From Mobula hypostoma (taxonomy: Eukaryota), in assembly GCF_963921235.1 (NCBI RefSeq), contig NC_086097.1, positions 96,598,001 through 96,662,000 of the forward strand: a DNA stretch of 64,000 nt. Reading direction: 5' to 3'. The notes beneath the pieces are model-generated. The model was not told where the DNA came from and did not search any database. It saw only the letters and a program-made list of their open reading frames with translations. Below, one piece after another: positions 1 to 59,773 of the stretch; the stretch's first letter is position 1; each line of letters begins with the position of its first letter. A program made the position numbers and the translations under genes.

Positions 1-289
1 AGGGTCTGGAGATTGGGAAGGGGTCTGGTATGAGACATGCAGGAAAGATTAGATTAGGAAAGATGTTTATTTGAATTAGGAAAATAATCCTGTAATACAA
101 TAATAAATAAGCAGAATATTGTGGAAATTAACACCTGAAACAAAAGCAGAAAACACCATGTAGTTATAAATTGTTCATCAATATAGCATAAAGTACAGTG
201 AATGACAGAATAATATTATAGTAAACAATTCTAACACTTTTTACCTGAATAGTATTTCAGGTGTGTTATGTAAGCATTGAAATTTAATA

Positions 290-830
290 TTAGAATCATC
301 GAATAATACAGCACAGAAACAGGCCTTTTGGTCCAACTCGTCCGTGCCAACTAAGAAGCACAGCAAATGGTCCCATTTAACCTATGTCCCTCTAAGTCCT
401 TCCTAGCCATGTGCCTGCAAGTTTCTTTTAAGTGTCCTAAAGAAGGGTCTCAGCCCAGAATATCGACCATTTACTCATTGCCATAAATGTTGCCTGATCT
501 GCTAAGTTCCTCCAGTATTTTGTGCCTCAACCACTTCTTTAGCAGCTCGTTCCATGTATATACCACCCTCTGCATGATGAAATTGCCACTTAGGTTCCTT
601 TCAAACCTTTGCCTTCTAAACATATGCCTGTTAGTTTTTGATACCTTTTCTCTAGGGAAAAAACTGTTGTTTCTCTCTATGTCCCTCATATTTTTATATA
701 CAGTACCTCTGTAAAGTCAACCCTTAGTCTCTTATGCTCCTAGGAATAATGACCTAGCCTGCCTAAACTCTTCCTTGAACTCAGACTCTTATGTCCTGGT
801 AAAATTCTTGTAAAGTTCAGTTGATTTATT
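290..830 (-). mobile_element. Degraded CR1-type LINE 3' end, interrupted by a short Penelope-type terminal-repeat fragment (~433-530)
   Basis: Minus-strand ORF 471-689 contains a CR1 ORF2 C-terminal-like motif (QRVVYTWNEL). 433-530 resembles the Penelope terminal repeat at 50838-50970. Confidence 0.6.
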
Positions 831-15934: not shown

Positions 15935-15945
15935 TAATTAATGTA

Positions 15946-16485: not shown

Positions 16486-17207
16486 TTGCCTTTTTTTAAT
16501 TATCTCCGTTGATCGGAGGCTGTGAATTGGTTGGTTTTAACTTTTCTGTGCCCTATTTGGGCAGAAAAGTTTACTTTTGATTTCTTAATATGGCTGCTAA
16601 ACTTTCTTTTTAACTGCGTCATTTCTTTCTTTTCCCAGGGGATTCTGGGTGGTTACTTCCCTTTTGTCATCTTACGTATTTCCTGTGCGGCCTTAAATTT
16701 TGTAGTTTTTTTTAAAATTTTATTCTGTTTTGCTTTTTATAATCACTTTATGTTAATAATCCTATTTTTTTTGTTGCTGTGTCTATTCATGAGTTTGAGG
16801 TTTATTGTGGTTTTTTTTTTAATATATATTTTCCGGCTTTTGTTCTGTTCTGTGTGTATTTTAATTGAGCTAACTTTTTTTTACTTATTTTTTTACTGTT
16901 TTACAATTAGCTGATCCTTTTCATATTTATACCTTTTTTTTAGGGAGCGTATACCGGAAGTCATGGGGGTAGTTTTAGCGCTTGCTTCTTTCTGGCGGGT
17001 CTGCTTTAGATTTTGCCTTGGGGTCTTGGGGTGGGGGGTGGTGGGAGGGGCTTCACGTTTTAGTTTGTTTCTCTTTGGGCTATATACATTATTGAAGTAC
17101 TGGTTGCGTCCTTTTCCCCGGTATCTTTTGTATGTTCTGTTTCCTCTCCGGGTTTGTGGGTCGCGCCTATTGTCAATCCTCCTTGTTGTGGGTTGACTTT
17201 AGGATTT

Positions 17208-20200
17208 ATGGAGTCTATTATTAATTTTGTCTCCTGGAATACTAATGGTCTTAATCATCCTATTAAAAGGAAAAAAGTTTTTAAAGTGTTCCGGAGACTT
17301 AAAGCACAAATTTTATTTTTACAAGAGACCCATGTACGGAGGGGGGACAGACTACGTTTTTTCAAATTCTGGAAGGGCCAACAATTTCATTCGAACTCCA
17401 ATGCTAAGATTCGAGGCGTCTCTATTTTTATAGATTCCTCAGTTACTTTTATACAACAGGATATTATCTCTGATCCGAATGGTAGATTTTTATTGGTTAG
17501 TGGTTTACTATTTAATAAAAAAGTAGTTTTGGTTAATGTTTATGCTCCTAATATGGATTGTCCGGAATTTTATAAATCATTGTTTGATCAGTTTCCGAAT
17601 TTGAACGAGTTTTCATTGATTTGGGGCGGAGATCTTAATACCTGTTTATCTCCAGCTTTGGACTGTTCGGCTCCTTTACGGACTTTACCTAATAAATCTG
17701 CAAATTTGATTAATTTTTTCCTTTCTGATTCTGGGTCGACGGACATTTGGCGTTTTCTGCATCCTCAGGAAAAAGATTTTTCCTTCTTTTCACATGTTCA
17801 TCATTCCTATTCAAGAATTGATTATTTTTTCATTGATTCTCGTCTCATTCCTTCAGTGATTAAATGTGATTATGATTCTATAACCATTTCGGATCATGCT
17901 CCACTTAAGCTTTCTATTAAAATTATGGCCAATATACCAAACAATAGACAATGGCGTTTTAATTCGCTGTTGCTTCAGGACTCGGACTTTGTTAATTTTA
18001 TGAATGAACAGATTGAGCTTTTTTTTACAATTAACCATACAGAAGATATTTCGGTTAACACTCTTTGGGACACTTTTAAAGCCTATATTCGGGGTCAGAT
18101 TATTTCGTATTCCGTTGCTTTGAGGAAGAAACAGAAGCAGGAGGAGATGGCAATTGTGGACAAGATTAAAGAAATTGATAAGAAATATGTTATGGCTCCT
18201 TCTGAGGAGCTATACAAACAAAGAACTGAACTTCAAATGGAACACAGTTTACTACTCTCGTCCTCGATTGTAAACCAATTAAAGAAAACAAGAAGTGATT
18301 TTTATGTTCACAGTGATAAAATTGGCAAGCTGCTGGCTAATCAATTGAAATCTAATTATGTTAAATCTCAAATCAATCAGATTTATAACCAAAATGATCG
18401 ATTGATATTGGATCATGTGGGGATTAATCAAACCTTTTGTGATTTTTATTCTTCTTTATATCAATCAGAGTCTCCTCGAGATTCTAAATATATGAATGAT
18501 TTTTTAGATAAGTTAGACTTCCCTCAGATTTCACAGGATATGTCTTCTTTATTAGATACTTCCATTACAATGGATGAGATTAAGAATGTTATTTTTTCTA
18601 TGAATCTGGGGAAAGCTCCTGGCCCTGATGGGTTTACCGTTGAATTTTATAAATGTTTTGCTTCTTTATTGATTCCTTGGCTCTATAAGGTTTTTGAGGC
18701 TTCTTTGAAACTTGGTAAACTTCCGGAATCTTTTAATAGAGCATCAATTTCTTTAATACTAAAGAAGGATAAAGACCCTGCTCAATGTGCATCTTATAGA
18801 CCAATATCTTTATTAAATGTTGATTCTAAAGTTTTTTCTAAGTTATTAGCAAATAGACTAGAAAAAGTACTTCCTTCTATTAATTCGGAAGACCAAACGG
18901 GTTTTATTAAAGGTCGTTACTCTTTTTATAATATTCGTACATTGTTAAATATCGTTTATACTCCCTCACAAAATGTTCCTGAGTGTGTTATTTCTTTAGA
19001 TGCCGAGAAAGCTTTTGATAGAGTAGAATGGCCTTATTTATTTAAGGTGCTTGAAATGTTTAATTTTAGCTTGAAATTTATATCCTGGATTAAACTGTTA
19101 TATCACTCCCCTGTAGCCTCGGTTCATACTAACTCTTTAAACTCACCTTTTTTTCCTCTCTTTCGTGGTACTCGACAAGGCTGTCCTCTTAGTCCCCTAT
19201 TATTTGATATTGCATTAGAACCTCTTGCAATTGCTATTCGAGAATCTTCAAATATTACTGGGATAACTCGGGGATTAAAGTCCCATAAATTATCACTCTA
19301 TGCTGATGATTTACTTTTATATATTTCTAATCCTGAGAGATCCATTCCTGCTGTTTTAGAGTTATTAGCACAATTTGGTCTTTTCTCAGGTTATAAATTA
19401 AATCTTAGTAAGAGTGAACTTTTTCCGATTAATAAACATCTTCCCTTATATTATAAATTTCCATTTAAATTGATTAATAATTACTTTTCATATCTTGGGA
19501 TTAAAATTACTTGTAAACATAAAGATTTATTTAAGACTAACTTTTTACCATTAATAGACCATATTACTCAACTTTCATCTAAATGGTTTCCCTTATATTT
19601 AACTTTGATTGGTCGTATTAATGCAGTTAAGATGTTTTTTTTGCCAAAATTTTTATATGTGTTTCAGGCATTACCAATTTTCGTTCCTAAATCTTTTTTT
19701 GATAAAGTTGACTCTAAAATTTCTTCATTTATTTGGCAGAATAAGAATCCGAGACTGGGTAAAATACATTTACAGAAAGCTAAGAGAGATGGAGGTTTAG
19801 CATTACCTAACTTTAGATTTTATTATTGGGCTATTAATATTCGACATATGAAATTTTGGTTACTTGACCGGGACATACTATCTATTCCTAAATGGGTAGC
19901 ATTGGAATTACAATCTGTTCAGGGTTATACACTTGGTTCTATTTTAGGTTCCTCTCTTCCTTTTGATTCGAAACGCCTTAAGCAGGTCTCTAACCCGATA
20001 GTTAAATATGCTTTGCGCATTTGGTTTCAATTCAGAAAATTTTTTGATCTTAATCAATTCGGGTTAGCGATTCCTATTTTAGGTAACATATTTTTTCCTC
20101 CCTCTTTTACGGATCGCGCTTTTCAAACTTGGAAGACTAAGGGTATTTTACGGTTTTTGGATTTATTTTTAGATGGTTCCCTTATGTCTTTTGAACAATT

Positions 20201-20984
20201 ATCTAATAAATATAACTTATCAAGAATACATTTTTTTAGATATTTACAAGTTAGAAATTTCCTAAGTACTATACTTTCTTCCTTTCCAATGCTTCCTCCT
20301 ATATATATTTTAGATTCGATAATTAACCTTAATCCATGTCAGAAAGGTGCATCGGCTATGATTTATAATATTATTATGAAACTTAGGAAAGCTCCATTTG
20401 ATAAGATTAGGGTAGATTGGGAACAGGAATTGGGGCTTACCATTTCTGTGGATGATTGGGGGCAGATTTTACAATTAGTTAATACTTCCTCTATTTGTGC
20501 TAAACATTCCCTAATTCAATTTAAAGTGGTTCATAGAGCACTTATGTCCAAAGATAAGTTAGCGCGTTTTTACTCGCATATTAATCCTTTCTGTGATAGA
20601 TGTTCGGGGCAGATAGCCTCTTTAACTCATATGTTTTGGTCTTGCCCTACTTTGGAAACTTTTTGGAGAGATATTTTTAATATTATTTCTAAGGTATTAA
20701 ATATAGATATCTCTCCTCACCCTATTACTGCTATCTTTGGACTACCTAAAATTTCTAGTAATCTTTCCCCTTCAGCCCGTAGAATGATTGCATTTCTTAC
20801 TTTAATGGCGAAAAGATGTATTTTACAACATTGGAAAGAGCTTAATGCTCCAACTACCTTTTTTTGGTTTTCTCAGACGATTTTATGTTTGAATTTGGAG
20901 AAAATTAGAAGTAACCTTCATGATTCTTCATTTAAATTTGAACAGATTTGGGGACCTTTTATTCGATATTTTCATTTAATGTAA
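17208..20984 (+). CDS. L1 ORF2p (APE endonuclease, reverse transcriptase, C-terminal Cys-His domain), uninterrupted
   Basis: Endonuclease motifs SWNTNGL, LQETH, GGDLN, SRIDY, SDH; RT motifs KAPGPDG, YRPISLLN, LDAEKAFDRV, QGCPLSP, YADD; CDRC...HMFWSC. Likely ATG at 17208. Confidence 0.97.
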   Translation: MESIINFVSWNTNGLNHPIKRKKVFKVFRRLKAQILFLQETHVRRGDRLRFFKFWKGQQFHSNSNAKIRGVSIFIDSSVTFIQQDIISDPNGRFLLVSGLLFNKKVVLVNVYAPNMDCPEFYKSLFDQFPNLNEFSLIWGGDLNTCLSPALDCSAPLRTLPNKSANLINFFLSDSGSTDIWRFLHPQEKDFSFFSHVHHSYSRIDYFFIDSRLIPSVIKCDYDSITISDHAPLKLSIKIMANIPNNRQWRFNSLLLQDSDFVNFMNEQIELFFTINHTEDISVNTLWDTFKAYIRGQIISYSVALRKKQKQEEMAIVDKIKEIDKKYVMAPSEELYKQRTELQMEHSLLLSSSIVNQLKKTRSDFYVHSDKIGKLLANQLKSNYVKSQINQIYNQNDRLILDHVGINQTFCDFYSSLYQSESPRDSKYMNDFLDKLDFPQISQDMSSLLDTSITMDEIKNVIFSMNLGKAPGPDGFTVEFYKCFASLLIPWLYKVFEASLKLGKLPESFNRASISLILKKDKDPAQCASYRPISLLNVDSKVFSKLLANRLEKVLPSINSEDQTGFIKGRYSFYNIRTLLNIVYTPSQNVPECVISLDAEKAFDRVEWPYLFKVLEMFNFSLKFISWIKLLYHSPVASVHTNSLNSPFFPLFRGTRQGCPLSPLLFDIALEPLAIAIRESSNITGITRGLKSHKLSLYADDLLLYISNPERSIPAVLELLAQFGLFSGYKLNLSKSELFPINKHLPLYYKFPFKLINNYFSYLGIKITCKHKDLFKTNFLPLIDHITQLSSKWFPLYLTLIGRINAVKMFFLPKFLYVFQALPIFVPKSFFDKVDSKISSFIWQNKNPRLGKIHLQKAKRDGGLALPNFRFYYWAINIRHMKFWLLDRDILSIPKWVALELQSVQGYTLGSILGSSLPFDSKRLKQVSNPIVKYALRIWFQFRKFFDLNQFGLAIPILGNIFFPPSFTDRAFQTWKTKGILRFLDLFLDGSLMSFEQLSNKYNLSRIHFFRYLQVRNFLSTILSSFPMLPPIYILDSIINLNPCQKGASAMIYNIIMKLRKAPFDKIRVDWEQELGLTISVDDWGQILQLVNTSSICAKHSLIQFKVVHRALMSKDKLARFYSHINPFCDRCSGQIASLTHMFWSCPTLETFWRDIFNIISKVLNIDISPHPITAIFGLPKISSNLSPSARRMIAFLTLMAKRCILQHWKELNAPTTFFWFSQTILCLNLEKIRSNLHDSSFKFEQIWGPFIRYFHLM

Positions 20985-21342: not shown

Positions 21343-23206
21343 AATCGTGGAACTGAATTTAGGAGCAGAGAGGTAATGTTGCAGCTATGTAGGACCCTGG
21401 TCAGACACCACTTGGAGTACTGTGCTCAATTCTGGTTGCCTCACTACAGGAAGGACGTGGAAGCCATAGAAAGGGTGCAGAGGAGATTTACAAGGATGCT
21501 GCCTGGACTGGGGAGCATGCCTTATGAGAATAGATTGAGTGAACTCAGCCTTTTCTCCTTGGAGTGACATAGGATGAGAGCTGACCTGATAGAGGTGTAT
21601 AAGATGATGAGAGCACTGATCGTGTGGATAGTCAGAGGCTTTTTCCCAGGGCTGAAATGGTTACCACAAGAGGACACAGGTTTAAGGTGCTGGGGAGTAG
21701 GTACAGAGGAGATGTGAGGGTTAAGTTTTTTACACAGAGAGTGGTGAGTGAGTGGAATGGGCTGCCGGCAATGGTGGTGGAGGCGGATATGATGGGGTCT
21801 TTTAAGAGACTCCTGGATAGGTACATGGAGCTTAGAAAAATAGAGGGCTATGGGTAAGCCTAGTAATTTCTAAGGTAGGGACATGTTTGGCACAACTTTG
21901 TGGGCCAAAGGGCCTGTGTTGTGCTGAAGGTTTTCTATGTTTCTAAGATGGGAGACAGGGGATGGCAGAAGCTTGCTCAATATTTAAAATGATGCACTCT
22001 GAATGAACTAATCCCTGAGGCTTAAGAAGGCATCGGTGGTACCATACTTGGAGTATTGTGAGCAGTATTGGGCCCCATATGTAAGAAAAGATGTCCTGGC
22101 CTCGGAGAGGGTTCAGAAGTTGTTCACGGGAATGAAATGTTTAAGGTGTGAGAAGCAATTGATGGGCTCTGGGGCTGCACTCGCTGGAGTTTAGAAGAAT
22201 GAGGGATATCTTAATGAAACCTATCCAATACTGAAAGGCCTCCATAGAGTGGATGTGGAGAATATTTTCCCTATAGTGGGAGAGTCTAGGACCAGAGGGC
22301 ATGGCCTCAGAATAGAGAGACGTCTATTTAGAACAGAGATGAAGAGGAATTTCTTTAGCCAGAGGGTGATGAATCTGTGGAGGTCATTGCCACAGACTGT
22401 TGTGGAGGCCAAGTCATTGGATACATTTAAAGTGGAGGTCATTTAGCAAGTGTATCAAAAGTTATGGGGAGAAGACAGGAAAATGGGATTGGGAGGGATA
22501 ATAAATCAGCCATAATGGAATGACAGAGCAGACTCAGTAGCCTGTCTTATGGGTTTATAGGACTGCTTGCCTGGAAGTAAGATCTTTTAATGCTCTATAC
22601 CTTATAAATTCAATGAAAGATGAAATTAGTTATTGATGTGTTTACTGCCTTGTTCTTTTGATTGAATGTAAATGAACAAAATCAGCACAGACATATAGTG
22701 GTCTGCCTCATACTATGTGTTTGATGATTACATCCTCCAAATTTGTATTTTCATTGTAACATTCAAGATGGTTATCTACACCTTCAAATTCTTTGTAGTT
22801 TCTAACTTGTAGTGAAATTGTTTCATTTTCACTCCCAGCTGTTTCTGACATCTCCAAGCCTGGATGCTTGAAACCACAGTGAGCAAAACAGTTCTAACTT
22901 GTCTTGCTGCTTATTTCTCGCCAACTATCAGTGACAAGAATCACTGCTTTTTGAACACAAACACTTGCAACTAATGCTATTTGAAAGCTGTTCACTCTAA
23001 GCACAGTGTAGTGTCTAGCGACCATGCATGTACACATGACTGACCCTAGTTAGAAACTGTTCGGCAACAGTCTCTTGTCCCAATTAAGTGGCATAGGGTC
23101 CCAAGTAAACTAAAGGCATCCAGGCTATTTTCTCAACTGTTTTTTGTTCTTTAAGAGTTGTCCCAAATAGGCAGCTGTCCCGACTAACTGATGGCCTAGT
23201 TAACCA
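21343..23206 (+). repeat. Right copy of the 1864-bp direct repeat (two CR1 fragments plus part of a DNA-transposon remnant)
   Basis: See left copy. This copy continues into a TIR-like end ttaaccagaatccgctgta (to ~23218) that is cut off in the left copy. Confidence 0.97.
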
Positions 23207-23749
23207 GAATCCGCTGTATAAAAGCTGGACTTGCCTTCAATTACATAAAATAGATTCTTCCTGCTCTTCTCCCTTTTTTGGGTCCTCCACATTTTGATAT
23301 ATTGATACACCAAGTGCTATCCAGCAGTTGTTGGTGTATCAATATATCAAAATGTGGAGGACCCACCTATATCTGGATGCATTCACAGTCTGCAGTCTGC
23401 AGCTATTCTAGCAGAATCCGACTTTCACAGTTTGGCTTGAATTCCACGTACTTAGTGGATCCCGATCAAGTTCTTCAGACCCACTTCACATGCAACCACT
23501 TCAAACATATTACCTACCTGGCTTTTCTATCTGCCCTTTCCCTGCCAACTGCCTTTCTGGTAATGACCATCCCCAAGCCCTGCAATGCAGAAAAATTATC
23601 CTTCAGCTGATTTTTCTGCCATTTACTTTTGTATCCTTCATCCTTGATATATTTACCCTGTGTGATCTTCCCTTAACATCATGGTCTGAATCGACATTCC
23701 CTCCCCTAAGGCAACTTGAAAATTTGTGGTAAGTGTGGTATAAAAGGCA

Positions 23750-25899: not shown

Positions 25900-26740
25900 G
25901 TTCTATAAAAACAGCCATACCATTTATATTTGATTTGTCCAATGTAGAAAGCAAATGTAAAATACAAACACCATTTGTGACTGATGCAAGGCACTAAAGT
26001 GGAAGTGCACAAGTTGTTGCTATAACTGGAAGAACTGTTTGGATCCTGGGATGCTATGTGGGAAAAGATGAAAGTGCAGGTGTTGAATCTATGGATGCAT
26101 GGGAAAATGTGTGAGAAGGGGATTGGTTGGTTGAGGAAGAAGTTTGCTATGACCTCATTTTCCATGCAACCAGCCTCCATGTCCAATAGAATCACCTCTT
26201 TAGAATGCTGGAAGGAGTGTGAGAAGCTGACGAAATATCTGCTGATGGAATCCCATTAGGCAGGTAGAAATTATAGAGGACAATCTACTGAACATGGAGG
26301 CTGGTGGGATGGAAACTGAGGTCAAGGCAAATGCTTTCCTAGTACTGGCTGGCAAGAGAGTTGATGAGAACAGAAGTATGAGAAATAAAGGAGACATGGC
26401 TGAAAACCCTGTTACCTATAGTAGAGGAGAAGTTTCAATGAAGGGAAAAGGAAGATATTTTAAAGGCACTCATGTTTGAAGTCATATCAACACCATAGAT
26501 ATGGTGGAGAAATTGGGAGTATGGAATGGAATTCTTGCTGGATGGGACGACGTGTTGCTGAGATGGTTGTGGGAGTTGGTAGACACTGGCAAATGGAGAG
26601 GTGAAGAAGGTCAGATATGGACTCTGTGAATGTGAGAGCAGGATGGAAACTGGCAGCAAAGGTAAAGAAGTTTGAGTCCAATATGACTATTGGAAGTAGC
26701 TGCATCACTGTAGTGAAGAAAGGGCTGTGTGTGGGTGTGT
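25900..26740 (-). mobile_element. Old, degraded Penelope-like element fragment
   Basis: Residual KNSIPYSQFL (compare KNAIPFSQFL in 51266-52624) and a decayed GIY-YIG-like region. Confidence 0.5.
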
Positions 26741-42379: not shown

Positions 42380-42815
42380 CTGGGTAAAAGAAAAATATTG
42401 TCAGTACCAAGAGTATAATCACTATTAGTATGGTGCTATTCTGCCAATTTAGTTTAGTTGCATTCAGTGCTAACAATATGGTGCTCTCTATTTTGGAGAA
42501 ACCAAGAGATTAGGTGATTACAGAGTGCCACTTTTAATTTGTAAGGATGACTTTAAACTTCCAATTGCTTCTCACATTAATACTCTGCTTTCGTCTTTTA
42601 AACAGTTTCAACAAACCTGTCGTAAGGCTGAGGAACAATATTTTGTCTTCCAGCTAAGCATTTGCTTGCCTTCAGGACATAATACTGAATGCAACAATTT
42701 CAGATCAGACCTGGCCAGTTTAACACAAGGTTATCAACCTGTAACATTAACACTTTTTTTTCTCCCCTCTGCCGATGTTTGCCACATGACCTGCTGCGCA
42801 ACAAGTCCTACTTCA

Positions 42816-43028
42816 ACACACACAAAATACTGCAGGAACTCAGCAGGTCAGGCAGCATCCATAGAAATAAATAAACAGTTGACATTTCAGGCCAAGGCAC
42901 TTCTTCAGGACTCGGCCCGAAATGTCGACTGTTCATTTGCTTAAATGGGCCTGACTTGCTGAGTTTCTCCAGCATTTTGTGTGTGTTGCTTTGGATTTCC
43001 AGTATCTGCATAATTTCTTGTATTTATG
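42816..43028. mobile_element. Palindromic Penelope terminal-repeat mini-insertion (older copy)
   Basis: Two opposed terminal-repeat fragments; 13-bp TSD aagtcctacttca at 42803-42815 and 43029-43041. Confidence 0.85.
42877..42912 (-). ncRNA. Degenerate minimal hammerhead ribozyme motif
   Basis: Minus strand reads agtc-CTGAAGA-agtgccttggcct-GAAA-tGTC-aact; stems I and II carry mismatches. Confidence 0.5.
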
Positions 43029-43229
43029 AAGTCCTACTTCAGTAAGTTAATCTTATATTTTTTCAGTTGCCAACTTAATCTTGTTATTGATCCTTAATTG
43101 TAAAAAGAGGATCACAAAATAGAATTCTTTCTCACTTGATTAATTTCCTTTCATTTCTCTTTTGTCCCTCCACTATCACCCCCGATCTCTCCCTCTACGT
43201 TCAGTCCTCAGCTTCATTCCTCTGTGCCC

Positions 43230-44768: not shown

Positions 44769-45038
44769 CAAGATATTAAGGGGAATAGATAGAATGGATA
44801 GGTATACACGATATTATGAAGTATAGATAGAGTGGACAGCCAGAGCCTCTTCCCCAGGGCACCACTGCTCAATACAAAAGGACATGGCTTTAAGGTAAGG
44901 GGTGGGAAGTTCAAGGGGGATATTAGAGGAAGGTGTTTTACTCAGAGAGTGGTTGGTGCGTGGAGTGCACTGCCTGAGTCAGCGGTGGAGGCAGATACAC
45001 TAGTGAAATTTAAGAGACTACTAGACAGGTATATGGAG

Positions 45039-45862
45039 TGTGACGAGAATACACATAGATAAGATGTTAGCTGTCCTGTGTGATCAGCAGTGGGTCTGCC
45101 ACCTGTCTTCAAGAGAGAGGTAAGGGACACAATGAAACAGCACCTGGAAATGTGTAGAGAGCTGTCTGGAGCGGCTCCCCCTTTGAACCCTGAACTGTTT
45201 GAAGTGATGGACAGGTGATACCCCAGCAGGGGGATAAAAAGGGGCCGGTTCGCTAAGGCAGGACACACACGCCACCCGAGGTAACGAGACTCTGGAAGCG
45301 GTGCGCCTCTCACGAGTCGGTGGGAAGTACCAGACAACGCACAGGGTGGAAAGGTACGATCAGCGGGAACCCGGTGTGTGTCCGCCCTTGCCTGGGTGCC
45401 GGGTTCACTGCAGAGGATCGACCGCATCTGGAGGAGGGGTCACAGTCGGTGACCTCAGGTGACATCACCAAGGACCCGCCCAAAAGTTGCTTGTGAGCAA
45501 TTATCGTCGGTCTGTGAGTGAAGCCGTTCTGAATGATCAGTTGTTCCTGTTCTATCTCTCTCTTCCCCCACGTTGTCCATCCATGGCAACGATTACTGCG
45601 AACTGAACTAAATTGGACTGAACTCTTGGGTCACTTTGAAATTTGATCATTTACCCCTAGACAATGATAGAGCTTGATTGATGCTGTTATCTTAATTCTG
45701 TGCACATGTGTGTTTATCATTGCTGAACTGTTGCATCTATTATCCTTTCGATTACTGTGTTGCTTGTTTCTTTAATAAAACTTTCTTAGTTCTAGTAATC
45801 CAGACTCCAACTGAGTGATCCATTTCTGCTGGTTTGGCAACCCAGTTACGGGGTACGTAACA
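45039..45862 (+). repeat. 5' LTR (824 bp)
   Basis: tgtgacgaga...tacgtaaca; highly similar to 49043-49869; internal AATAAA. Confidence 0.96.
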
Positions 45863-45866
45863 TAAG

Positions 45867-45886
45867 TGGGGTTCTTGTCCGCGATT
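45867..45886 (+). promoter_or_regulatory. Primer-binding site, tRNA-Pro-like (diverged)
   Basis: tggggttcttgtccgcgatt versus the canonical tRNA-Pro PBS TGGGGGCTCGTCCGGGATT, 4 nt after the 5' LTR. Confidence 0.65.
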
Positions 45887-45923
45887 TTGAATGCCCGAAA
45901 GAAAGAAAAGACAAACAGCAGAA

Positions 45924-47150
45924 ATGGAGGCTGAGGAATTTATAAAGGCGCCGACCTTGGAGGCATTAGAGGATGCCAGGAAATCGGAATAGATAGCTGT
46001 GGCCAAACGGTTGAATCTTGCTAAGGTGAAGTCGACAATGAGGAGAGAGGAGATACACAGAGCTATTGTAGAGCACTATGTATCTAAAGGTGTGTTTCCC
46101 CAAGGTGAGCTGGGGGTGGTGTCTATTGAAAAACCTGCTGGAGACGCGGTACAGGTACAGCTTGAAAAACTGAGACTCGAGCACGAGTTCCGGGTACGGC
46201 AGTTAGAACACGAAGAGAAGGAGAGAGAGTTAGAAAGGCAAGAAAGAGAAAGACAGTTGGAGAGAGAAGAGAAAGAGAGGGACAGACAGTTGGAGAGAGA
46301 GGAGAAACAGAGGGAAAGGGAATTTGAGCTGGAGAAGTTAAAGATAAGGGCCGAGCAGGGGCTCGTGCCGAACCAAGGTGGAGGGTTCCGGGCGACCCAG
46401 GAGGTTAGGCTGGTTCCCCCATCTGACGATACCGACGTGGATCGGTACTTTCTCCACTTCGAAAAAGTGGCTATAAGTCAGGAATGGCCGAGGGATAAGT
46501 GGGCTGTGTTACTTCAGAGTGTACTGAAAGGGAAAGCCCAAGAAGCTTACTCCGCTTTGTCCGCGGAAGATGCCCAGAGGTATGAGGTGGTGAAAGAGGC
46601 CATCCTCAGGATTTATGAGTTGGTCCTGGAGGCATACCGGCAGAGGTTCCGGAATGCGAGGAAGCAGTGGGACCGCACGTATTTGGAGTTTGCCCGTGAG
46701 AAGCAGACAGATTGTGAGCGTTGGTGCGCCTCGAAGGGGGTAGAGGGGGATTATGACAGACTGCTACAGCTGATCCTGATTGAGCAGTTTAAGGGTTGTG
46801 TCCCTGAGGGTATGAGACCCTACCTCGATGAGAAAGAGGCAGCCACGTTAGCCGCAACTGCTAAGTTAGCGGATGAGTATGCGTTGACGCATAAAATGAA
46901 GTTTGCCCCGAGTAAAGGCTATCAGAAGGGTAGTCAGGACGGCGGGGAGAGTCCGCCGGAAAAGTCAGAAAGTAAGCCGGGGACGAGTGAAAAGGATAAG
47001 GTAGACCGGGAGCAGTCTGGTAGGAAGTCTCCTGGGGTCATCTGTTATAATTGTGGGAAAGCCGGACACTTTGCGTCCAGGTGCTTTGCCCCAAAGAAGG
47101 AGACGGGAAAAGGAAGAACAGCGATTTTGATGGCTGTATCGATCTGTTAA
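45924..47150 (+). pseudogene. Gag with coiled coil, SCAN-like capsid domain and CCHC knuckle; in-frame TAG at 45990
   Basis: EAYRQRFR...LLQLILIEQF (SCAN-like); CYNCGKAGHFASRC. ATG 45924 is in frame with ORF 45999-47150. Confidence 0.85.
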
Positions 47151-47219
47151 GCGAACCGCTAGGGAAGGACAGGTCTGGAAAAAGTCCAGGAAGGGCGCGA
47201 GAGGTTTATCTCGGCCGGA

Positions 47220-47678
47220 TTGGTGTCAGTGAAGGAGGGGTTAAAACCAGTTCCAGTGCGGATCTGGAGAGACACGGGAACGTGTCAGTCACTAATACTG
47301 AAGAGTGTATTAGAGTTTAGCTCAGAGACCCAGACCGGGAAGGTAGAGGTCAAAGGTGTTGGGGAAGGGACAGAGTCAGTCCCTTTGCACCAGATACACC
47401 TACAAAGCAACCTGGTCTCTGGACTAGTCACGATCGGGGTGAGGTCCGAGTTAACGATGAAAGACGTGGAAGTCTTGCTCGGAAATGACCTCGCGGGAGG
47501 AATTGTGTTCCCCGCCGTGAGGCTGACAAGTCAGCCTGCCAGCATGGAGGCCCCGCCCGTGGACTCGCAGGTTTATCCCGTTTGCGCAGTAACTCGGCGG
47601 ATGGCGAGAAAAGCTGCAGAGGCCGACATAAAGTTAGCTGAAACGTTTCTGCCCACCCTGTACGGGGGGGGGAAATAG
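47220..47678 (+). pseudogene. Retropepsin-type aspartic protease
   Basis: RDTG catalytic motif and LLGNDL motif. Confidence 0.8.
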
Positions 47679-47758
47679 AAAGTGAAAAGACGGAACGAAA
47701 TGAAACAAGAGGCAGTGAGGGAGCTGGGACAGATGTAGCAGTAGCCAGGAAAGAATTT

Positions 47759-48910
47759 GTGCAGACGCAGGAGCGAGACGAGGGGCTGATGATTTCGGCA
47801 GAGACAGCTCTCTCTGACACAGCTTTAACAAGGGAACTAGTAGGCTATTGTGTGGAGGACGAATTGCTACGGGAAAAAGGGAAATCAAGTACAGTACCCG
47901 CAGATGAGGAGTGGGGGGTGGTGCAAAAGAGTTATGGGGATGAGGTTCTTAACATGGCCCACGAGGTACCCCCCGGTGGACATTTTGCGGTGCTGGAGGA
48001 AACAGTTGGTGGAATCATGAAAGAGGTTTACTGGCTGCCCAGGGGGAAGAATGTTATTGATCATGACCGATGCGAACTGAGACGGTCACCGGCTTTTGAT
48101 ACGCTAACAAACCTAGTCGGTGTTAGCATGGAAATCAATGAAGCTCGGGGCCCCCTGATAAGAGGAAGAAACCATTTTGAAAAGATTAGTATGGGATCGA
48201 TCAGATGGGAGAAGGCTATTGTTTTGGCCAGGTCTACTGATAAGGTCTCTCCCTTAATTCCCGAACAAAGCGAATCTTTAGAAGAAGTAATTAAACGACT
48301 CGCACCCGTGTGTTTGATTGTCCCGAGGCAATGCAAAGAACTGGGACGTTGGGTGATGTCTGTTACAATAGGCCAGCCTAGCAAACAACATCCATATATA
48401 ATGAGTAATTCAGTGACTAAAGGGCTGATGAACACAGAGGTGTGTATTGGCAATTTAATACGGCTGTCTGAAGCCAGCTTGATAGTGAACCTTGAAAAAA
48501 ATGAATTCGGCCACACGAGGGTCACTTACCTGGGAATTGTGGTGACACAGGGGCAGCTGGCAGCGATGCAAACTACAGTGCAGGCTATCGCTGACCTCCC
48601 AACATCGACAGACAAGAGGGCCCTCAGAAGGCTCTTGGAGATGGTGGGGTACTGTAGGAAGTTTTGCAATAACTCTGCGGTCAATATCCCTCCCCCCTCC
48701 TACTAAGCCCTTGCGAGAGAAAACTGAGTCGGAATGGGACGACCCTTGTTATTGTGGTCCGGGACAAAACCAAATGAGAGGTTACATTGATCGAAATTCA
48801 TCAGTGTTTTTGGCCACTATGAAGTTTGCTGAGTTAGAGCCTGGTCTAAGGGATTATTAATAACACATGTAAAAGGAACAGAAAATGCGATGACTGTCTG
48901 TCAAGGTGTT
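47759..48910 (+). pseudogene. Collapsed pol: integrase Zn-binding start, RT fragments, RNase H tail
   Basis: AHEVPPGGHF..VYW (integrase N-terminus), then KQHPY, NLEKNEF..VTYLG, MVGYCRKF (RT), then HVKGTEN (RNase H end). No DDE core and no YxDD. Confidence 0.75.
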
Positions 48911-49042
48911 GACAACTTCAAACTCGCTGTGTTAGCCAAATAGCTGATAAAGATGTATATTTGTGCGTGTATCAAATAATGTATTCATGTTTGTAATTTT
49001 TACCTCCCGGTAAAAATCCTTAAAAGGGGCGGAGGGGGGAAG

Positions 49043-49869
49043 TGTGACGAGAATACACATAGATAAGATGTTAGCTGTCCTGTGTGATCAGCAGTGGGTC
49101 TGCCACCTGTCTTCAAGAGAGAGATAAGGGACACAATGAAACAGCACCTGGGGATGTGTAGAGAGCTGTCTGGAGCGGCTCCCCCTTTGAACCCTGAACT
49201 GTTTGAAGTGATGGACAGGCGATACCCCAGCAGGGGGATAAAAAGGGACAGGTTCGCTAAGGCAGGACACACACGCCACCCGAGGTAACGAGACCCTGGA
49301 AGCGGTGCGCCTCTCACGAGTCAGTGGGAGTACCGGACAACGCACAGGGTGGAAAGGTACGATCAGCGGGAACCCGGTGTGTGTCCGCCCTTGCCTGGGT
49401 GCCGGGTTCACTGCAGAGGATCGACCGCATCTGGAGGAGGGGTCACAGTCGGTGACCTCAGGTGACATCACCAAGGACCTGCCCAAAAGTTGCTTGCGAG
49501 CAATCTCGCCGGTCTGTGAGTGAAGCCGTTTCTGAATGATCAGTCGTTCCCGTTCTCTCTCTCTCTCTCCCCCCACGTTGTCCATCGCCATGGCAACGAT
49601 TACTGCGAACTGAACTAAATTGGACTGAACTCTTGGGTCACTTTGAAATTTGGTCATTTACCCCTAGACAACGATAGAGCTTGATTGATGCTGTTATCTT
49701 AATTCTGTGCACATGTGTGTTTATCATTGCTGAACTGTTGCATCTATTATCCTTTCGATTACTGTGTTGCTTGTTTCTTTAATAAAACTTTCTTAGTTCT
49801 AGTAATCCAGACTCCAACTGAGTGATCCATTTCTGCTGGTTTGGCAACCCAGTTACGGGGTACGTAACA
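49043..49869 (+). repeat. 3' LTR (827 bp)
   Basis: Follows the PPT aaaaggggcggaggggggaag; ends tacgtaaca. Confidence 0.96.
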
Positions 49870-50934
49870 GGAGGAATTTAAGGTGGGGGTTATATGGGAG
49901 GCAGGGTTTGAGAGTCGGCACAACACTGTGGGCCGAAGGGCCTGTACTGTGCTGTACTATTCTATGTTCTATAAACTACTGCTGTAACTTGCCTCGTACG
50001 CGGTTCCCCACTACGTCAGAGAGGTGTGGAGGGAAATCGTCCGCTAACTGGAGAAACTCCGGATATAACGTACCTTTCCCTTTTTATCGTATCATTTTAG
50101 GAGCATCATTGTTCTCTCTAAGCTGCGCCACATAGTAACTGGAAAGCTCCAATGCACGTGGCTTTTGTTGCTGTGCAGCTGGGATTTTCTTTTATATAAT
50201 GTTGATATACTTTTCAAATGATGCGACTATAAATTTGAAATCTATGTTAATATAATTGTGAAGTACCTCGTAATTAATTAGGTGTTTGTGGTCATAATTC
50301 ATATTTTCCAAATGATAAATGTAGCACAAACTTTTCTTCGAAAAATTTTAGAGCTTCATTGCATGAACATTGTTAGTGTTTTAAGTTACAACATTGTTAC
50401 AAAATTGTAACAATAAACACAGAATACAAGTCAGTGGCTCATTGTTAATAAATGCCAGCCCACTAAGTTTAAAAATATGACGATTTTCCTTATACTGTAT
50501 TTCATTATACCCTTTATTAATAAATAAAATCAAAAGTATGTGTTTTTTCAATTTCCATTCTAAATATTCATATTATACACATCACAAAAGAGAACTTTTA
50601 AAATGTTGCACAATTTTCAGCCCGTGTAAAAATTTTCTGCTGAGAGCAATGGTTGGTTGGTCCGTGCAGTTGTTAAAGAAAAATTAGAGGGAATGTTGAA
50701 GAGTATAGAGCATCAAAAACATAGGGGCTAACCTGCTAAATTACTTATGCAATTCTATATACTTGGGCTAAACCATAGCTCCAGTCAGTGCTCAGAAATG
50801 ACTTGACAATGCAGTAAAACTATGCTAATAATTTGTAAACAACAGGAATTCTGCAGATGCTGGAAATTCAAGCAACACACATCAAAGTTGCTGGTGAACG
50901 CAGCAGGCCAGGCAGCATCTCTAGGAAGAGGTGC

Positions 50935-50970
50935 AGTCGACATTTCAGGCCGAGACCCTTCGTCAGGACT
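50935..50970 (-). ncRNA. Minimal type-I hammerhead ribozyme motif in the Penelope terminal repeat
   Basis: Minus strand reads agtc-CTGACGA-agg gtctcgg cct-GAAA-t-GTC^gact: stem I agtc/gact, stem II agg/cct, loop-less stem III (ATGT, against ACGT in the 57.4 kb copy). Confidence 0.75.
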
Positions 50971-51265
50971 AACTGAAGGAAGAGTGAGTAAGGGATTTGA
51001 AAATTGGAGGGGGAGGGGGAGATCCAAAATGATAGGAGAAGACAGGAGGGGGAGGGATGGAGCCAAGAGCTGGACAGGTGATAGGCAAAAGGGATACGAG
51101 AGAATTATGGGACAGGAGGTCCAGGAAGAAAGACAGGGCGGGGGGGGGGCCCAGAGGATGGGCAAGGGGTATATTCAGAGGGACAGAGGGAGAAAAAGGA
51201 GAGTGAGAGAAAGAATGTGTGCATAAAAATGAGTAACAGATGGGGTACGAGGGGGAGGTGGGGCA

Positions 51266-53860
51266 TTAGCGGAAGTTAGAGAAGTCGATGTTCATGCCAT
51301 CAGGTTGGAAGCTACCCAGACGGAATATAAGGTGTTGTTCCTCCAACTTGAGTGTGGCTTCATCTTTACAGTAGAGGAGGCCGTGGATAGACATGTCAGA
51401 ATGGGAATGGGATGTGGAATTAAAATGTGTGGCCACTGGGAGATCCTGCTTTCTCTGGCGGACAGAGCGTAGGTGTTCAGCAAAGTGGTCTCCAAGTCTG
51501 CGTCGGGTCTCGCCAATATATAAAAGGCCACATCGGGAGCACCGGACGCAGTATATCACCCCAGCCGACTCACAGGTGAAGTGTTGCCTCACCTGGAAGG
51601 ACTGTTTGGGGCCCTGAATGGTGGTAAGGGAGGAAGTGTAAGGGCATGTGTAGCACTTGTTCCGCTTACACGGATAAGTGCCAGGAGGGACATCAGTGGG
51701 GAGGGATGGGGGGGGGACGAATGGACAAGGGAGTTGCGTAGGGAGCGATCCCTGCGGAATGCAGGGGGGGGCGGGGGGAGGGAAAGATGTGCTTAGTGGT
51801 GAATCCCGTTGGAGGTGGCGGAAGTTACGGAGAATAATATGTTGGACCCAGAGGCTGGTGGGGTGGTAGGAGAGGACCAGGGGAACCCTATTCCTAGTGG
51901 GGTGGCAGGAGGATGGAGTGAGAGCAGATGTATGTGAAATGGGGGAGATGCGTTTAAGAGCAGAGTTGATAGTGGAGGAAGGGAAGCCCCTTTCTTTAAA
52001 AAAAGAAGACATCTCCCTCGTCCTAGAATGATAAGCCTCATCCTGAGAGCAGATGCGGCGGAGACGGAGGAATTGCGAGAAGGGGATGGCGTTTTTGCAA
52101 GAGACAGGGTGAGAAGTGTCTAGATAGCTGTGAGAGTCAGTAGGCTTATAGTAGACATCAGTGGATAAGCTATCTCCAGAGACAGAGACAGAAAGATCGA
52201 GAAAGGGGAGGGAGGTGTCGGAAATGGACCAGGTAAACTTGAGGGCAGGGTGAAAGTTGGAGGCAAAGTTAATAAAGTCAACGAGCTCTGCATGCGTGCA
52301 GGAAGCAGCGCCAATGCAGTCGCTGAAGTAGCGAAGGAAAAGTGGGGGACAGATACCAGAATAGGCACGGAACATAGATTGTTCCACAAACCCAACAAAA
52401 AGGCAGGCATAGCTAGGACCCATACGGGTGCCCATAGCTACACCTTTAGTTTGGAGGAAGTGGGAGGAGCCAAAGGAGAAATTATTAAGAGTAAGGGCTA
52501 ATTCCGCTAGACGGAGCAGAGTGGTGGTAGAGGGGAACTGATTAGGTCTGAAATCCAAAAAGAAGCGGAGAGCTTTGAGACCTTCCTGATGCGGGACGGA
52601 AGTATATAGGGACTGGACATCCATGGTGAAAATAAAGCGGTGGGGGCCAGGGAACTTAAAATCATCGAGAAGTTTAAGAGCGTGAGAAGTGTCACGAACA
52701 TAGGTAGGAAGGGATTGAACAAGGGGGGATAAAACAGTGTCGAGGTATGCAGAAACGAGTTCGGTGGGGCAGGAGCAAGCTGAGACAATACGTCTGCCAG
52801 GACAGGCAGGTTTGTGGATCTTGGGTAGGAGGTAGAAACGGGAAGTGCGAGGTGTGGGAACTATAAGGTTGGTAGCAGTGGATGGGAGATCCCCTGAGTG
52901 GATAAAGTCGGTGATGGTGTGGGAGACAATGGCCTGGTGCTCCTTAGTGGGGTCACGATCGAGGGGTAAATAAGAGGAGGTATCCGCGAGTTGTCGCTAT
53001 GCCTCGGCAAGGTAGAGGTCAATGCGCCAGACTACAACAGCACCCCCCTTATCGGCGGGTTTAATAATAAGGTTAGGATTAGTGCGGAGGGAGTGGAGAG
53101 CAGAGCGTTCTGAAGGAGTGAGGTTGGGATGGGGACAAGGTGCGGTGAAGTCGAGACGGTTGATGTCCCGTCGGCAGTTAGCGATAAAGAGATCCAGAGC
53201 AGGCAGAAGACCAGAGCGGGGTGTCCATGAAGAAGAGGAGGGTTGAAGACGGGAGAAGGGGTCATCGGTGGGGGTGGAAGAGTCCTTGCCGAAGAAGCAG
53301 GCTCGGAGACGGCGGAAGAAGAGTTCCGCATCATGGCGAATGCGGAACTCACTGAGGTGTGGGCGAAGGGGGACAAAGGTGAGGCCCTTACTGAGGACAG
53401 AGCGCTCTGCCTCAGACAGTTGAAGGTCGGAGGGGATGGTAAAGACCCGGCACGGATGAGAGCTGGGATCAGAGGGGGGAGGAGGCAGGCTGGGGCTGTC
53501 AATGGAGAGTGGAGGGTTGGGGTGAGAGAAAGATGGAGCCTCTGAGGACCCAGGAGCTGATGATGGGATCTGAAGGAGATGGGATTGCAGAGTATTGGTG
53601 GGGGAAGGGGAGACGGGAGTCACAACAGCAGCACATAAAGACCCGGCCTGGAGTTCAAGGCTGGAGTCGCAGTTGATGGTTGCGCAATCACTTTGAATGT
53701 GTCCATGCTCGTTGCTGGAGTCCGGGTTTTGAATATGCCCTGAGGTGTTGGAGCCGGCGAGATCAATGGCAGAGGCAATCTGAGGTTCATGCCTGCTAGT
53801 TTCATGGCCAGCAGGCTCTGGAGTCCGTAGATGTAGGATCTTGCGATCTTTGCCTAACAT
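51266..53860 (-). pseudogene. Penelope-type RT/GIY-YIG polyprotein, inactivated
   Basis: IKPADKGGAVVVW, MDVQSLYTSVP, GVAMGTRMGPSYA, RYFSD (catalytic YxDD lost), VIYCVRC..C..LYIGETRRRL...EH. Confidence 0.92.
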
Positions 53861-53989
53861 GACAATTTGTACTAATAATTTGTATTGATTTTAATCCATG
53901 CCCCTAACTATCATGGTTCAGCTAATCAATTGTATCTTTAGGAATGAAAGCAAAGGGGAAGGTTTCAGTTGAAGAGACACATTAAATGC

Positions 53990-57200: not shown

Positions 57201-57278
57201 AAGTTTTGTAGCATTAAGTACATAATATTACTATAAATTACAGAATAAATAGTGCAAAAGGAAAGGGTTCATGAGATG

Positions 57279-57500
57279 CAACAACAGGAATTCTGCAGAT
57301 GCTGGAAATTCAAGCAACACACATCAAAGTTGCTGGTGAATGCAGCAGGCCAGGCAGCATCTCTAGGAAGAGGTACAGTCGACGTTTCAGGCCGAGACCG
57401 TCCTGACGAAGGGTCTCGGCCTGAAACGTTGACTGTACCTCTTCCTAGAGATGCTGCCTGGCCTGCTGCGTTCACCAGCAACTTTGATGTGTGTTGCTTG
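57279..57500. mobile_element. Palindromic Penelope terminal-repeat mini-insertion (young copy)
   Basis: 89-bp inverted arms at 57311-57399 and 57412-57500 around a 12-nt loop; 13-bp TSD ggttcatgagatg at 57266-57278 and 57501-57513; near-identical to 50838-50970. Confidence 0.93.
57400..57433 (+). ncRNA. Minimal type-I hammerhead ribozyme motif
   Basis: gtc-CTGACGA-agg gtctcgg cct-GAAA-c-GTT^gac, with palindromic ACGT in place of stem III. Confidence 0.75.
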
Positions 57501-59773
57501 GGTTCATGAGATGGACGGGAAGAAGCAGTTTTTGAATCATTGATTGCTGTTCTTGAGGCTCCTGTACCTCCTCCCTGATGGTAGTAATGAGAAGAGGGGC
57601 ATGTCTCAATGGTGAGGGTCACTAATGATGGATGCCATTTTCTCCAGGCACCATCTCTGGAAGATGTCCTTGGTGGTGGGGAAGTTTGTGTCTGTGACGT
57701 AGCAGGCCAAATCTACAACCCTCTGCAGCCAGTCAATGCAATCCTGTACACTGGAGCCTCCACAATGCAAGCAATCAGAATGCTCGCCACTTTATATCTA
57801 TAGTAATTTGCAAGAGTCTTTGGTGACACAGCAAATCTCTTCAACTCTTAATGAAGTTAAACTGCTGGTGTGCCTTCTTCATGATTGCATCAATGTGTTG
57901 GGCTCAGGATAGATCCTCTGAGATATTGACAGCTAGGAATTTGAAGACACTCACCATTTCCATCACTGACCCTTAATGAGGACCAGTGCATATTGCCCTG
58001 AGTTCCCCTTTCTCGAGCCCACAATTAATTCCTTGGGCTTGCTGATGTTGAGTGTGAGGTTGTTGATGTGACCCTACTCAACCAACCACTTTATCTCATT
58101 GCTGTATGCCTCCTCATTACTATCTGAAATTTTACAGATAGCAGTAGTATCATCTGCAAATTTATAGATGGTACTTGAGGTGTGCTTAACCATAAAGTCA
58201 TGAGTGTAGAGAGAGTAGAGCTGTGGCTTAAGCACACATCCTTGTGTTGCATCTTGTCGATATCAGTGAGGAGGAAATATTATCATTGATTCCTACTAAC
58301 TCTGGTCTCCTGATGAGGAAGCTGAGGACCTGGTTTCAGGAGGTGGTACAGTTGCCCAGGTTTAGAAGCTTAGTGATGATGGGACTGAAGACCAAGCTAT
58401 AAGCAATAAACAGTATCCTTACATATATCATACTACTTTGACTTCACAGGAAGAAAATCCGTAAACATTTCACAATTACAGCAAGTAGTTGCAGGTTCAA
58501 TCTGTGAGTACTTCCTCAGTCAGTTCAGCTTCTTTAACCATGGTTCCCATGCCTGGAACAAGTATTTTGCAACTCGAACAATGGATGACTCTGTATGAGA
58601 TTCAGAATCAGGTTTATATGTATAACAAAAATATTTTAAGTTACAGTAAAAAATATTAAAAAGTAGTGCAAAAAGTGAGGTAATTTTCATTGTCCATTCA
58701 GAAATCTGATGGCAGAGGGGACGAAGCTGTTCCTAAAAAAAAGAGGGTGTCTTCAGGCTCCTATAACTGTTCCCAGAAGGTAACAATGAGAAAAGAGCAT
58801 GTCCTGGATGCAGAAGGTCCTTAATGATGGACTCCACCTTCTTGAGGCACCGCCTTTTGAAGATATCCTCGATGATGGGGAGGATTGTGCCCAAGATGGG
58901 GCTGGCTAAGTTTATAATCCTCTACAAATTTTTCTGATCCTATACATTGTTGTCTCCATGCCAGAAGGTTATGCAACCATTCAAAATGGTCTCCACAGTA
59001 CATCTACAGAAATTTGCTAGAGTCTTTGGTGACATACCAAATCTCCTCAAAATCCTAATGAAATATAGCCACTGGCGTGCTTTCTTCATTCTGCAGCAAT
59101 ATGATGAGCCCATAATAGATCTTCAGAAACATAAAGTGGCTCCCTCTTTCCACTGCTGACCTCACAACGAAGACTCGTCTGTGTTCTTCCAACTTCCCCT
59201 TCCTAATCAGTTCCTTGGTATTAACAACACTGAATCAAGGTTGTTGTTGTGACACCACTGAACCAGCCAATCTATCTCACTCCTCTATGCCTCCTCGTCG
59301 CCATCTGAGATTTTCTTAATAGTTGTGTTACTGCGGAATTTATAGATGTGTTTGTGCTGTGTCTAGCCACACAGTCATCAGTGCAGAGATCCAGTAGGCT
59401 AAGCAGCATCCTTGAGGTCCTCCTATATTGACCGTCAGTGATACCACTTACTGTGGTCTCCTGATGAGGAAAGTCAGGGATCGAGTTGCAGGGGGAGGTA
59501 CAGAAGCCCCAGGTTTTGAAGCTTGTTGATTAACACTGATGGTGGATGATGGTGTTGAAATCTGAGCTCTAATTAATAAACAGCCTGACATAGATACTGC
59601 TATTGTCTCATTGGTCCAAGACCAAGTGGAGAGCCACTGAAACTGCATCTGGTATTTGCCTATTATGGTGGTAGGAAAATTGGAATGGGTCCAGGTCCTT
59701 GATTATGTAGAAGTGATTCTAGCCACAACTAATCTCTCAAAGAATTTCATCACAGTAGATGTGAGTGCTACTA

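What the first reader, a model, noticed from the sequence alone, without database searches (positions are those of the whole stretch)
57266..57513. 222-bp hairpin retro-insertion with a hammerhead core in its loop: candidate ribozyme-bearing mini-element
Seen: near-perfect 89-bp inverted arms derived from the terminal repeat of the Penelope element 6 kb away, a 13-bp TSD, no ORF, and a 12-nt loop (gtcctgacgaag) holding the hammerhead 5' core. In RNA, the long hairpin and the ribozyme fold are mutually exclusive. Known: Penelope elements carry minimal hammerheads and often have inverted partial terminal repeats; retrozymes are non-coding hammerhead retroelements. Inference: either a stereotyped abortive Penelope integration product or a self-propagating non-autonomous family. 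It would also be a source of dsRNA (small RNA or ADAR substrate) against the parent element.
Basis: partly seen in the sequence, partly recalled or inferred. Interest (0 to 1): 0.7.

Follow-up and report, generated by a model that had tools for sequence, protein, structure and literature searches.

The report
Twin-primed Penelope stump, not self-copying hairpin
This 222-base DNA hairpin is real but ordinary: it is one of thousands of mirror-image stumps of a Penelope-type jumping gene in this genome, each likely built on the spot by copying the end of one RNA twice, and its ribozyme core is predicted to be locked inside the hairpin.

Summary
In detail: 89-nt arms (98%), 13-bp TSD, 12-nt loop with the hammerhead core; the ribozyme fold costs about 44 kcal/mol against the hairpin. 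The junction occurs 11 times with different TSDs, but the 11 copies fall into at least 9 polarity-plus-subfamily classes, differ as much as random copies (40% vs 41% of diagnostic sites), and carry the tail on the core arm in 6 and the other arm in 5. The junction recurs independently. It is a minor class among more than 5,000 such palindromes (the commonest junction counted: 379). Of 76 sampled insertions of this family (67,810 exact hits of a 28-mer), 32 are clean head-to-head pairs, and all 32 have one tailed and one tail-less end. Best reading: a by-product of target-primed reverse transcription from both nicked strands, at the element's two start sites, joined near the hammerhead's 5' edge. 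Inverted stumps with a one-sided tail are published for Penelope-like elements, and this scan has noted the same structure at least eight times on other DNA. The 6-kb neighbour is a different subfamily, not the donor.

The parts
57266..57278 (.). Left target-site duplication (13 bp; 14 bp with the shared G at 57265)
57280..57310 (-). Penelope 'tail', present only on this arm; ends at the distal start site S1 (+128; coordinates count from the C of the CUGANGA core)
   Evidence: (D12); tail and two RT start sites from PMC11167929, PMC8557442
57311..57399 (-). Left arm: antisense copy of the element end from +9; has GAAAC-GUC but no CUGANGA core
57400..57411 (+). 12-nt loop: 3 nt of helix I 5' strand, CUGACGA core, start of helix II; junction at 57399/57400 has zero microhomology
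57400..57433 (+). Degenerate minimal type-I hammerhead: helix I cut to 3 bp, helix II AGG/CCU, GAAA at 57423, no helix III loop (palindromic ACGU), triplet GUU instead of GUC, predicted cut after 57430
   Evidence: sequence read against the minimal motif in PMC4209133; activity untested
57412..57500 (+). Right arm: sense copy ending at the proximal start site S2 (about +97), no tail
57501..57513 (.). Right target-site duplication
50838..53871 (-). Related 5'-truncated Penelope-like copy (same family, other subfamily; not the donor): RT and GIY-YIG with CX4CX2C linker and CxxC in the core, in-frame stop at 52997-52999, degenerate RT motif C, tail, 13-bp TSD at 50825-50837 and 53872-53884

Best explanation
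The hairpin is a short head-to-head insertion of an abundant Penelope-like retrotransposon, likely made in place by two target-primed reverse transcriptions of the same RNA end, one from each nicked DNA strand, and not a self-copying element. Steps: (1) the element's GIY-YIG nuclease makes staggered nicks about 13-14 bp apart (TSD shown; enzyme inferred); (2) one strand primes at the distal start site S1 (tailed arm) and the other at the proximal site S2 (two classes of ends shown; priming inferred from the Anolis in vitro work); (3) both cDNAs stop, most often within 35 nt upstream to 15 nt downstream of the hammerhead core, likely near the RNA's 5' end (pile-up shown; cause inferred); (4) the two cDNA 3' ends are joined, usually through 2-3 nt of microhomology or with small inserts, here bluntly (junction spectrum shown; repair pathway inferred); (5) the product is likely a dead copy whose single hammerhead core is sequestered in an 89-bp stem (predicted).
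For: At least 3,089 + 1,961 + 528 exact-arm palindromes of this family with varied junctions (the sets may overlap slightly). Finding's junction 11 copies, commonest junction counted 379; 7 of the first 100 listed of 245 neighbouring junctions. One tailed and one short end in 69 of 71 parsed palindromes, 0 with two tails; the other 2 are compound and also have one of each at their outer ends. In a sample chosen without regard to palindromy (76 units, C1 0-3.5 Mb), 32 of 32 clean head-to-head pairs are tail + no tail, whereas 36 uncut solo copies end at either site (13 tailed, 23 short; 6 and 10 with a TSD found), so S2 is an end in its own right; random choice of ends gives p about 2e-11. The tail-less arm reaches further upstream as often as the tailed arm (25 vs 26; 13 vs 13 with 6 ties), by more than 40 nt in 8 of 32, including almost non-overlapping pairs (tailed arm +85..128 with partner -774..99; +82..128 with 0..102) that look like classical twin priming. 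Arms of one copy share subfamily: 30 of 447 sites differ vs 41% between copies; both non-CpG sites discordant in 1 of 64 vs 36% expected, which points to one template; the 1 exception (L054) has arms of two subfamilies, which fold-back cannot make. Microhomology of 2 nt or more in 21 of 34 insert-free junctions vs 16.5% simulated. TSD found in 65 of 71, mode 13-14 bp. PMC11167929: a Penelope-like protein cuts and extends both strands, starts at two internal sites that bound the tail, is predicted to be a dimer and uses uncleaved RNA.
Against: No intermediate was observed; everything mechanistic is read from finished insertions. Arm concordance and correlated arm lengths (Spearman 0.45, p = 0.01) fit fold-back equally well, and gene conversion could homogenise arms. 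In vitro the Anolis enzyme showed no strand difference in start site, so the strict pairing is not explained by that work, which concerns a Poseidon, not a Neptune-type, element. This copy's own junction has no microhomology. The two samples overlap in 8 loci and come mostly from the start of one contig; exact-match patterns favour young copies. L008 and L010 share one arm-specific A>G change, which could hint at common descent, although they differ at a site shared by both arms of L008 and in the tail.
Confidence: 0.72

Rival explanations
1. Fold-back (self-priming): one cDNA, or an antisense template, snaps back at a short palindrome and copies itself, giving the mirror arm; later deletions make the centre asymmetric. 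Still a one-off by-product.
For: Proposed for head-to-head Penelope junctions in PMC3846280. Arms share haplotype in 63 of 64; some long pairs turn at the same point (-501/-501, -1062/-1046) and at natural palindromes.
Against: Does not predict that the second arm ends at S2, where solo copies also end; predicts tail-less/tail-less pairs from S2-primed cDNA (0 of 32); needs large one-sided deletions for the 8 of 32 pairs where the tail-less arm is over 40 nt longer; cannot give L054; zero-spacer centres would need loops of 0-2 nt.
Confidence: 0.17
2. Self-propagating non-autonomous hairpin family (retrozyme-like) descended from one master and mobilised in trans.
For: 11 copies with the identical blunt junction and 11 different TSDs; each hairpin keeps the start sites an element protein could bind; L008/L010 share one arm-specific change; L004/L009 and L005/L011 share polarity and most haplotype sites.
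Against: At least 9 polarity-plus-haplotype classes among 11; 40% site difference among them, equal to random copies; polarity 5 vs 6; short-arm ends from +84 to +101; neighbouring junctions are as common or commoner (about 28 and 15 of 100 listed vs 7, by my count); no tandem array; ribozyme predicted blocked, GUU triplet, 3-bp helix I.
Confidence: 0.05
3. Dual priming on two separate RNAs (or on the two terminal repeats of one tandem transcript) from the same source locus.
For: L054 has arms of two subfamilies; pairs such as -878/-30 and -316/-2 fit one long and one leader-only template; dual priming has been proposed for L1 (PMC2837659).
Against: Only 1 of 64 discordant against 36% expected for random RNAs; does not by itself give strict tail/no-tail pairing or tailed arms that stop near S2 (+45 to +85).
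Confidence: 0.06

Closest known systems
Complex insertions of endonuclease-bearing Penelope-like elements: inverted 5'-truncated copy, 30-40 bp tail on one end, TSD (PMC8557442 Fig. 2 legend and text; PMC3846280)
   Same: Head-to-head arrangement, 31-nt tail on one arm only, TSD, hammerhead in the terminal repeat.
   Different: Here both arms are only about 100-120 nt, so the whole insertion is a hairpin; this is the short end of a continuous length series (arms from 44 to over 2,600 nt). PMC3846280 explains such junctions by self-priming; the counts here favour double priming.
Anolis Poseidon PAc in vitro system (PMC11167929)
   Same: Two start sites bounding the tail about 100-130 nt downstream of the hammerhead core; both strands cut and extended; uncleaved RNA as template (most arms here run through the predicted cut site).
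   Different: Different clade; the parts I read report no inverted products and no strand-specific pairing of the two sites.
L1 twin priming (described in PMC2837659)
   Same: Two priming events on opposite strands, inverted fragments inside one TSD, internal junction with or without microhomology.
   Different: L1 fragments do not overlap and the second site is set by target homology; here both arms usually cover the same RNA stretch and the second site is fixed.
Non-LTR retrozymes (10.64898/2026.07.22.740005; PMC4209133)
   Same: Non-coding, type-I hammerhead, derived from Penelope terminal repeats.
   Different: Retrozymes are head-to-tail tandem units with a hammerhead in each unit; this is a single inverted unit with one degenerate, sequestered core.

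Membership tests
EN+ Penelope-like element insertion | Sequence is the terminal repeat of an RT + C-terminal GIY-YIG element with CxxC inside the GIY-YIG core | tested here: met
   Arms 97-97.5% identical to the 3' end of the copy at 50838-53871, whose frame shows weak RVT_1 (E 3e-4, below Pfam cut-off), DKG and GVAMG motifs and GVIY-CSRC-YIG. NCBIfam and PDB searches gave nothing, so the call rests on motifs.
EN+ Penelope-like element insertion | Adjacent inverted 5'-truncated copy, head-to-head | tested here: met
   32 of 76 sampled units
EN+ Penelope-like element insertion | 30-40 bp tail on one end only | tested here: met
   31 nt on the left arm; 69 of 71 and 32 of 32
EN+ Penelope-like element insertion | Target-site duplication | tested here: met
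   13-14 bp here; 65 of 71
Neptune/Nematis clade | CX2-5CxxC motif between RT and EN | tested here: met
   CKRNKCYTC; definition from PMC8557442
Neptune/Nematis clade | RT phylogenetic placement | not tested
   no tree built
Minimal type-I hammerhead of PLEs | CUGANGA and GAAA cores, short helix I, helix II, loopless palindromic helix III, NUH | tested here: inconclusive
   All parts present in the family; in this copy helix I is 3 bp and the triplet is GUU; the isolated motif does not fold as a hammerhead by minimum energy; Rfam has no hit
Minimal type-I hammerhead of PLEs | Self-cleavage (as a dimer or protein-assisted) | not testable with these tools
   needs an assay
Non-LTR retrozyme | Head-to-tail tandem units, each with a complete hammerhead | tested here: not met
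   single inverted unit, one core; minus strand has no CUGANGA
Non-LTR retrozyme | Copies descend from a master unit | tested here: not met
   at least 9 classes among 11 same-junction copies
Non-LTR retrozyme | Transcribed, circular RNA | tested here: inconclusive
   no RNA holder on record; only contigs could be laid

The most novel reading that the evidence does not exclude
The thousands of hairpins are a genomic record of an obligate asymmetric step in Penelope transposition: one protein dimer on one RNA primes both target strands at once, one subunit at each side of the tail, so that every inverted insertion has exactly one tail; the junction pile-up just 5' of the uncleaved hammerhead maps the RNA's 5' end. 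This would replace self-priming as the explanation of inverted pLTRs, and makes this family the source of thousands of near-perfect 90-100-bp hairpins in the genome.
Probability: 0.5. Interest if true: 0.5.

Novelty: new member of a known kind. Interest (0 to 1): 0.24.

Why it matters
The locus itself is one of thousands and matters little. The population matters modestly: how Penelope-like elements make their inverted ends and one-sided tail is called undefined in PMC8557442, and a young family in which about four in ten sampled insertions are head-to-head gives countable predictions (strict tail/no-tail pairing, one template, junction pile-up) that the existing in vitro system could test directly. 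It is also a caution: a shared junction with different TSDs does not show propagation when junction space is small and copies number thousands.

Tried and rejected
Ribozyme cleavage sets the turning point: rejected. Most arms run past the predicted cut (+27/+28); of 528 palindromes turning further downstream only 8 of the first 50 listed are centred exactly on the cut, which is also a 6-bp natural palindrome; among 9 copies inspected with 5' ends near there, 1 begins exactly at the cut. Splicing sets the turning point (a branch-point, pyrimidine tract and CAG lie just 5' of helix I): rejected; 30 of 1,366 copies lacking the G before TTAG showed no shared upstream exon, only point mutants, inverted arms or unrelated flanks. 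ADAR scars in arms: no significant excess. Neighbour as donor: rejected. Expression: no RNA holder listed; contigs of guessed-RNA runs from other organisms show the family and loose ends at both S1 and S2 but nothing on this locus, its empty site, strand or level; no evidence either way. Rfam miRNA hits are generic hairpin matches below threshold. NCBIfam and PDB sequence searches of the neighbour's frames: no hits. Sequence look-up in earlier findings: none. A check for tail-to-tail arrangements was not completed, so their frequency is open beyond the 76-unit sample. Paper searches listed no paper whose title or abstract applies twin priming to Penelope-like elements or describes these hairpins in sharks or rays; the three papers were not opened, and subscription papers and repeat databases were not searched.

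Full report
Observation. The structure is as described: a 222-bp insert (57279-57500) between 13-bp direct repeats, with 89-nt arms at 98%, a 12-nt loop and 31 extra nt on the left arm. A shared G allows a 14-bp TSD reading. The plus strand carries one minimal hammerhead, with helix I shortened to 3 bp and GUU at the cleavage triplet; the minus strand has no core. Forcing the ribozyme helices costs 43.8 kcal/mol. Coordinates below count from the C of CUGANGA along the element's sense strand.

The parent family. [quoted passage not shown] The family is huge: 67,810 exact hits of one 28-mer in 3.48 Gb. The hairpin's arms share T at +33 where the neighbour has C, and a neighbour within 6.5 kb is expected about 18% of the time, so proximity says nothing about the donor. 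The host is taken to be a cartilaginous fish from scan notes; I did not test this.

The exact junction occurs 11 times, all with different TSDs. But in 5 the tail is on the arm without the core and in 6 on the arm with it; the copies span at least 9 polarity-plus-haplotype classes (L004/L009 and L005/L011 counted as one class each); they differ at 40% of seven subfamily sites, against 41% for random copies, while the two arms of one copy agree at 417 of 447. Each hairpin was therefore built from its own source RNA. One result points the other way: L008 and L010 share an A>G change in the short arm only, but they differ at a change present in both arms of L008 and in the tail, so I read it as coincidence. 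The junction is unremarkable: 0 of 50 unselected palindromes had it, which showed 33 junction classes; the junction with 3-nt microhomology has 379 copies; among 245 near neighbours it is 7 of the first 100 listed. Exact-arm palindromes number 3,089 (spacer up to 25), 1,961 (26-56) and 528 (turning further downstream).

Architecture of the population. I parsed 71 palindromes (11 same-junction; all 50 listed; the first 10 of 50 listed). 69 have one arm ending at +122 to +133 and one ending earlier, mostly +84 to +101; none has two tails; the 2 others are compound with one end of each kind. TSDs were found in 65, mode 13-14 bp. For a sample not chosen for palindromy I took the first 89 of 100 listed hits, which resolve into 76 insertion units: 33 inverted, 36 solo, 5 complex, 2 cut by the edge of the stretch. 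Leaving out one internal inversion (L120), 32 of 32 pairs are tail plus no tail, while solos end at either site (13 and 23). Eight loci are in both samples. Arm lengths form a continuum from 44 to over 2,600 nt. Of 104 5' ends, 48 lie in -35..+15 and only 4 in -36..-86 (this count includes the cut and internal-inversion units). Junctions show 2 nt or more of microhomology in 21 of 34 insert-free cases (16.5% simulated) and inserts in 16 of 50. An older relative (77%) made the same structure in this window at 42814-43018.

Mechanism. PMC11167929 (parts 1-2 of 4 read; supplementary Fig. S2 not seen) shows for an Anolis element that both strands are cut and extended, that reverse transcription starts at two internal sites bounding the tail, that uncleaved RNA is the main template and that the protein is predicted to be a dimer. 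The two arm ends here match such a pair of sites. Strict pairing, tail-less arms that are far longer than their tailed partners in 8 of 32, tailed arms that stop close to the second site, and one copy with arms of two subfamilies favour priming from both strands, nearly always on one template, followed by end joining. Fold-back, proposed in PMC3846280 (passages read), also explains arm concordance and some symmetric long pairs, and is not excluded. The cause of the pile-up is open: cleavage and splicing were tested and failed; an RNA start near there is the remaining guess.

Comparison. Inverted truncated copies with a one-sided tail and TSD are standard for these elements (PMC8557442, PMC3846280, PMC8969392: passages). 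Minimal hammerheads in the repeats, weak and dimer-dependent, and pairs on opposite strands 100-700 bp apart are in PMC4209133 (parts 1-2 of 4) and PMC6765202 (passages). Retrozymes are tandem units (10.64898/2026.07.22.740005, part 1 of 5; supplements closed); this is not one. L1 twin and dual priming: PMC2837659 (passages). My reading was written down before I saw the scan's notes; eight notes then showed the same structure and much the same explanation on other DNA, one in this genome, and gave me PMC3846280.

Verdict. Real, known in kind, not a propagating ribozyme element. Interest 0.24, resting on the population-level hint about how Penelope-like elements prime.

Noticed in passing
window 42803-43041: Older hairpin of a related Penelope-like family (about 77% to the neighbour copy): short left arm, tailed right arm, 13-bp TSD at 42803-42815 and 43029-43041, turning at the same part of the hammerhead.
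   Followed up: partly
window 14071-15938 and 21343-23210: 1,868-bp direct repeat at 99.7% flanking an L1-like element with an open 1,306-aa frame (17064-20984); already noted by the scan as a giant TSD-like event.
   Followed up: no
window 45037-49869: LTR element with two 830-bp repeats at 96.9% and a gag-like frame at 45993-47150.
   Followed up: no
window 26134-26340: Old inverted repeat, 69-nt arms at 78%, not matching the Penelope reference; looks like LINE fragments.
   Followed up: partly
L054 (G000:C1:31892477-31893120): Hairpin whose two arms belong to different subfamilies at four linked sites inside one TSD: two templates in one insertion.
   Followed up: yes
G000:C2:12242915-12243230: Three copies of one hairpin junction spaced 145 bp apart, a small tandem array of a hairpin centre; a similar pair 301 bp apart at C9:138055363-138055692.
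   Followed up: no
L161 and L162 (G000:C1:16.71 and 16.86 Mb): Same complex junction in two copies 150 kb apart with opposite tail polarity: another case of junction recurrence.
   Followed up: partly
window 50973-50990 (minus strand): Branch-point-like motif, pyrimidine tract and CAG directly 5' of helix I, overlapping initiator-like motifs (consensus recalled, no call); no spliced genomic copy in 30 examined.
   Followed up: partly
L075, L079 and matches listed: Junctions with short iterated templated inserts, the kind of scar recalled for polymerase-theta end joining.
   Followed up: no
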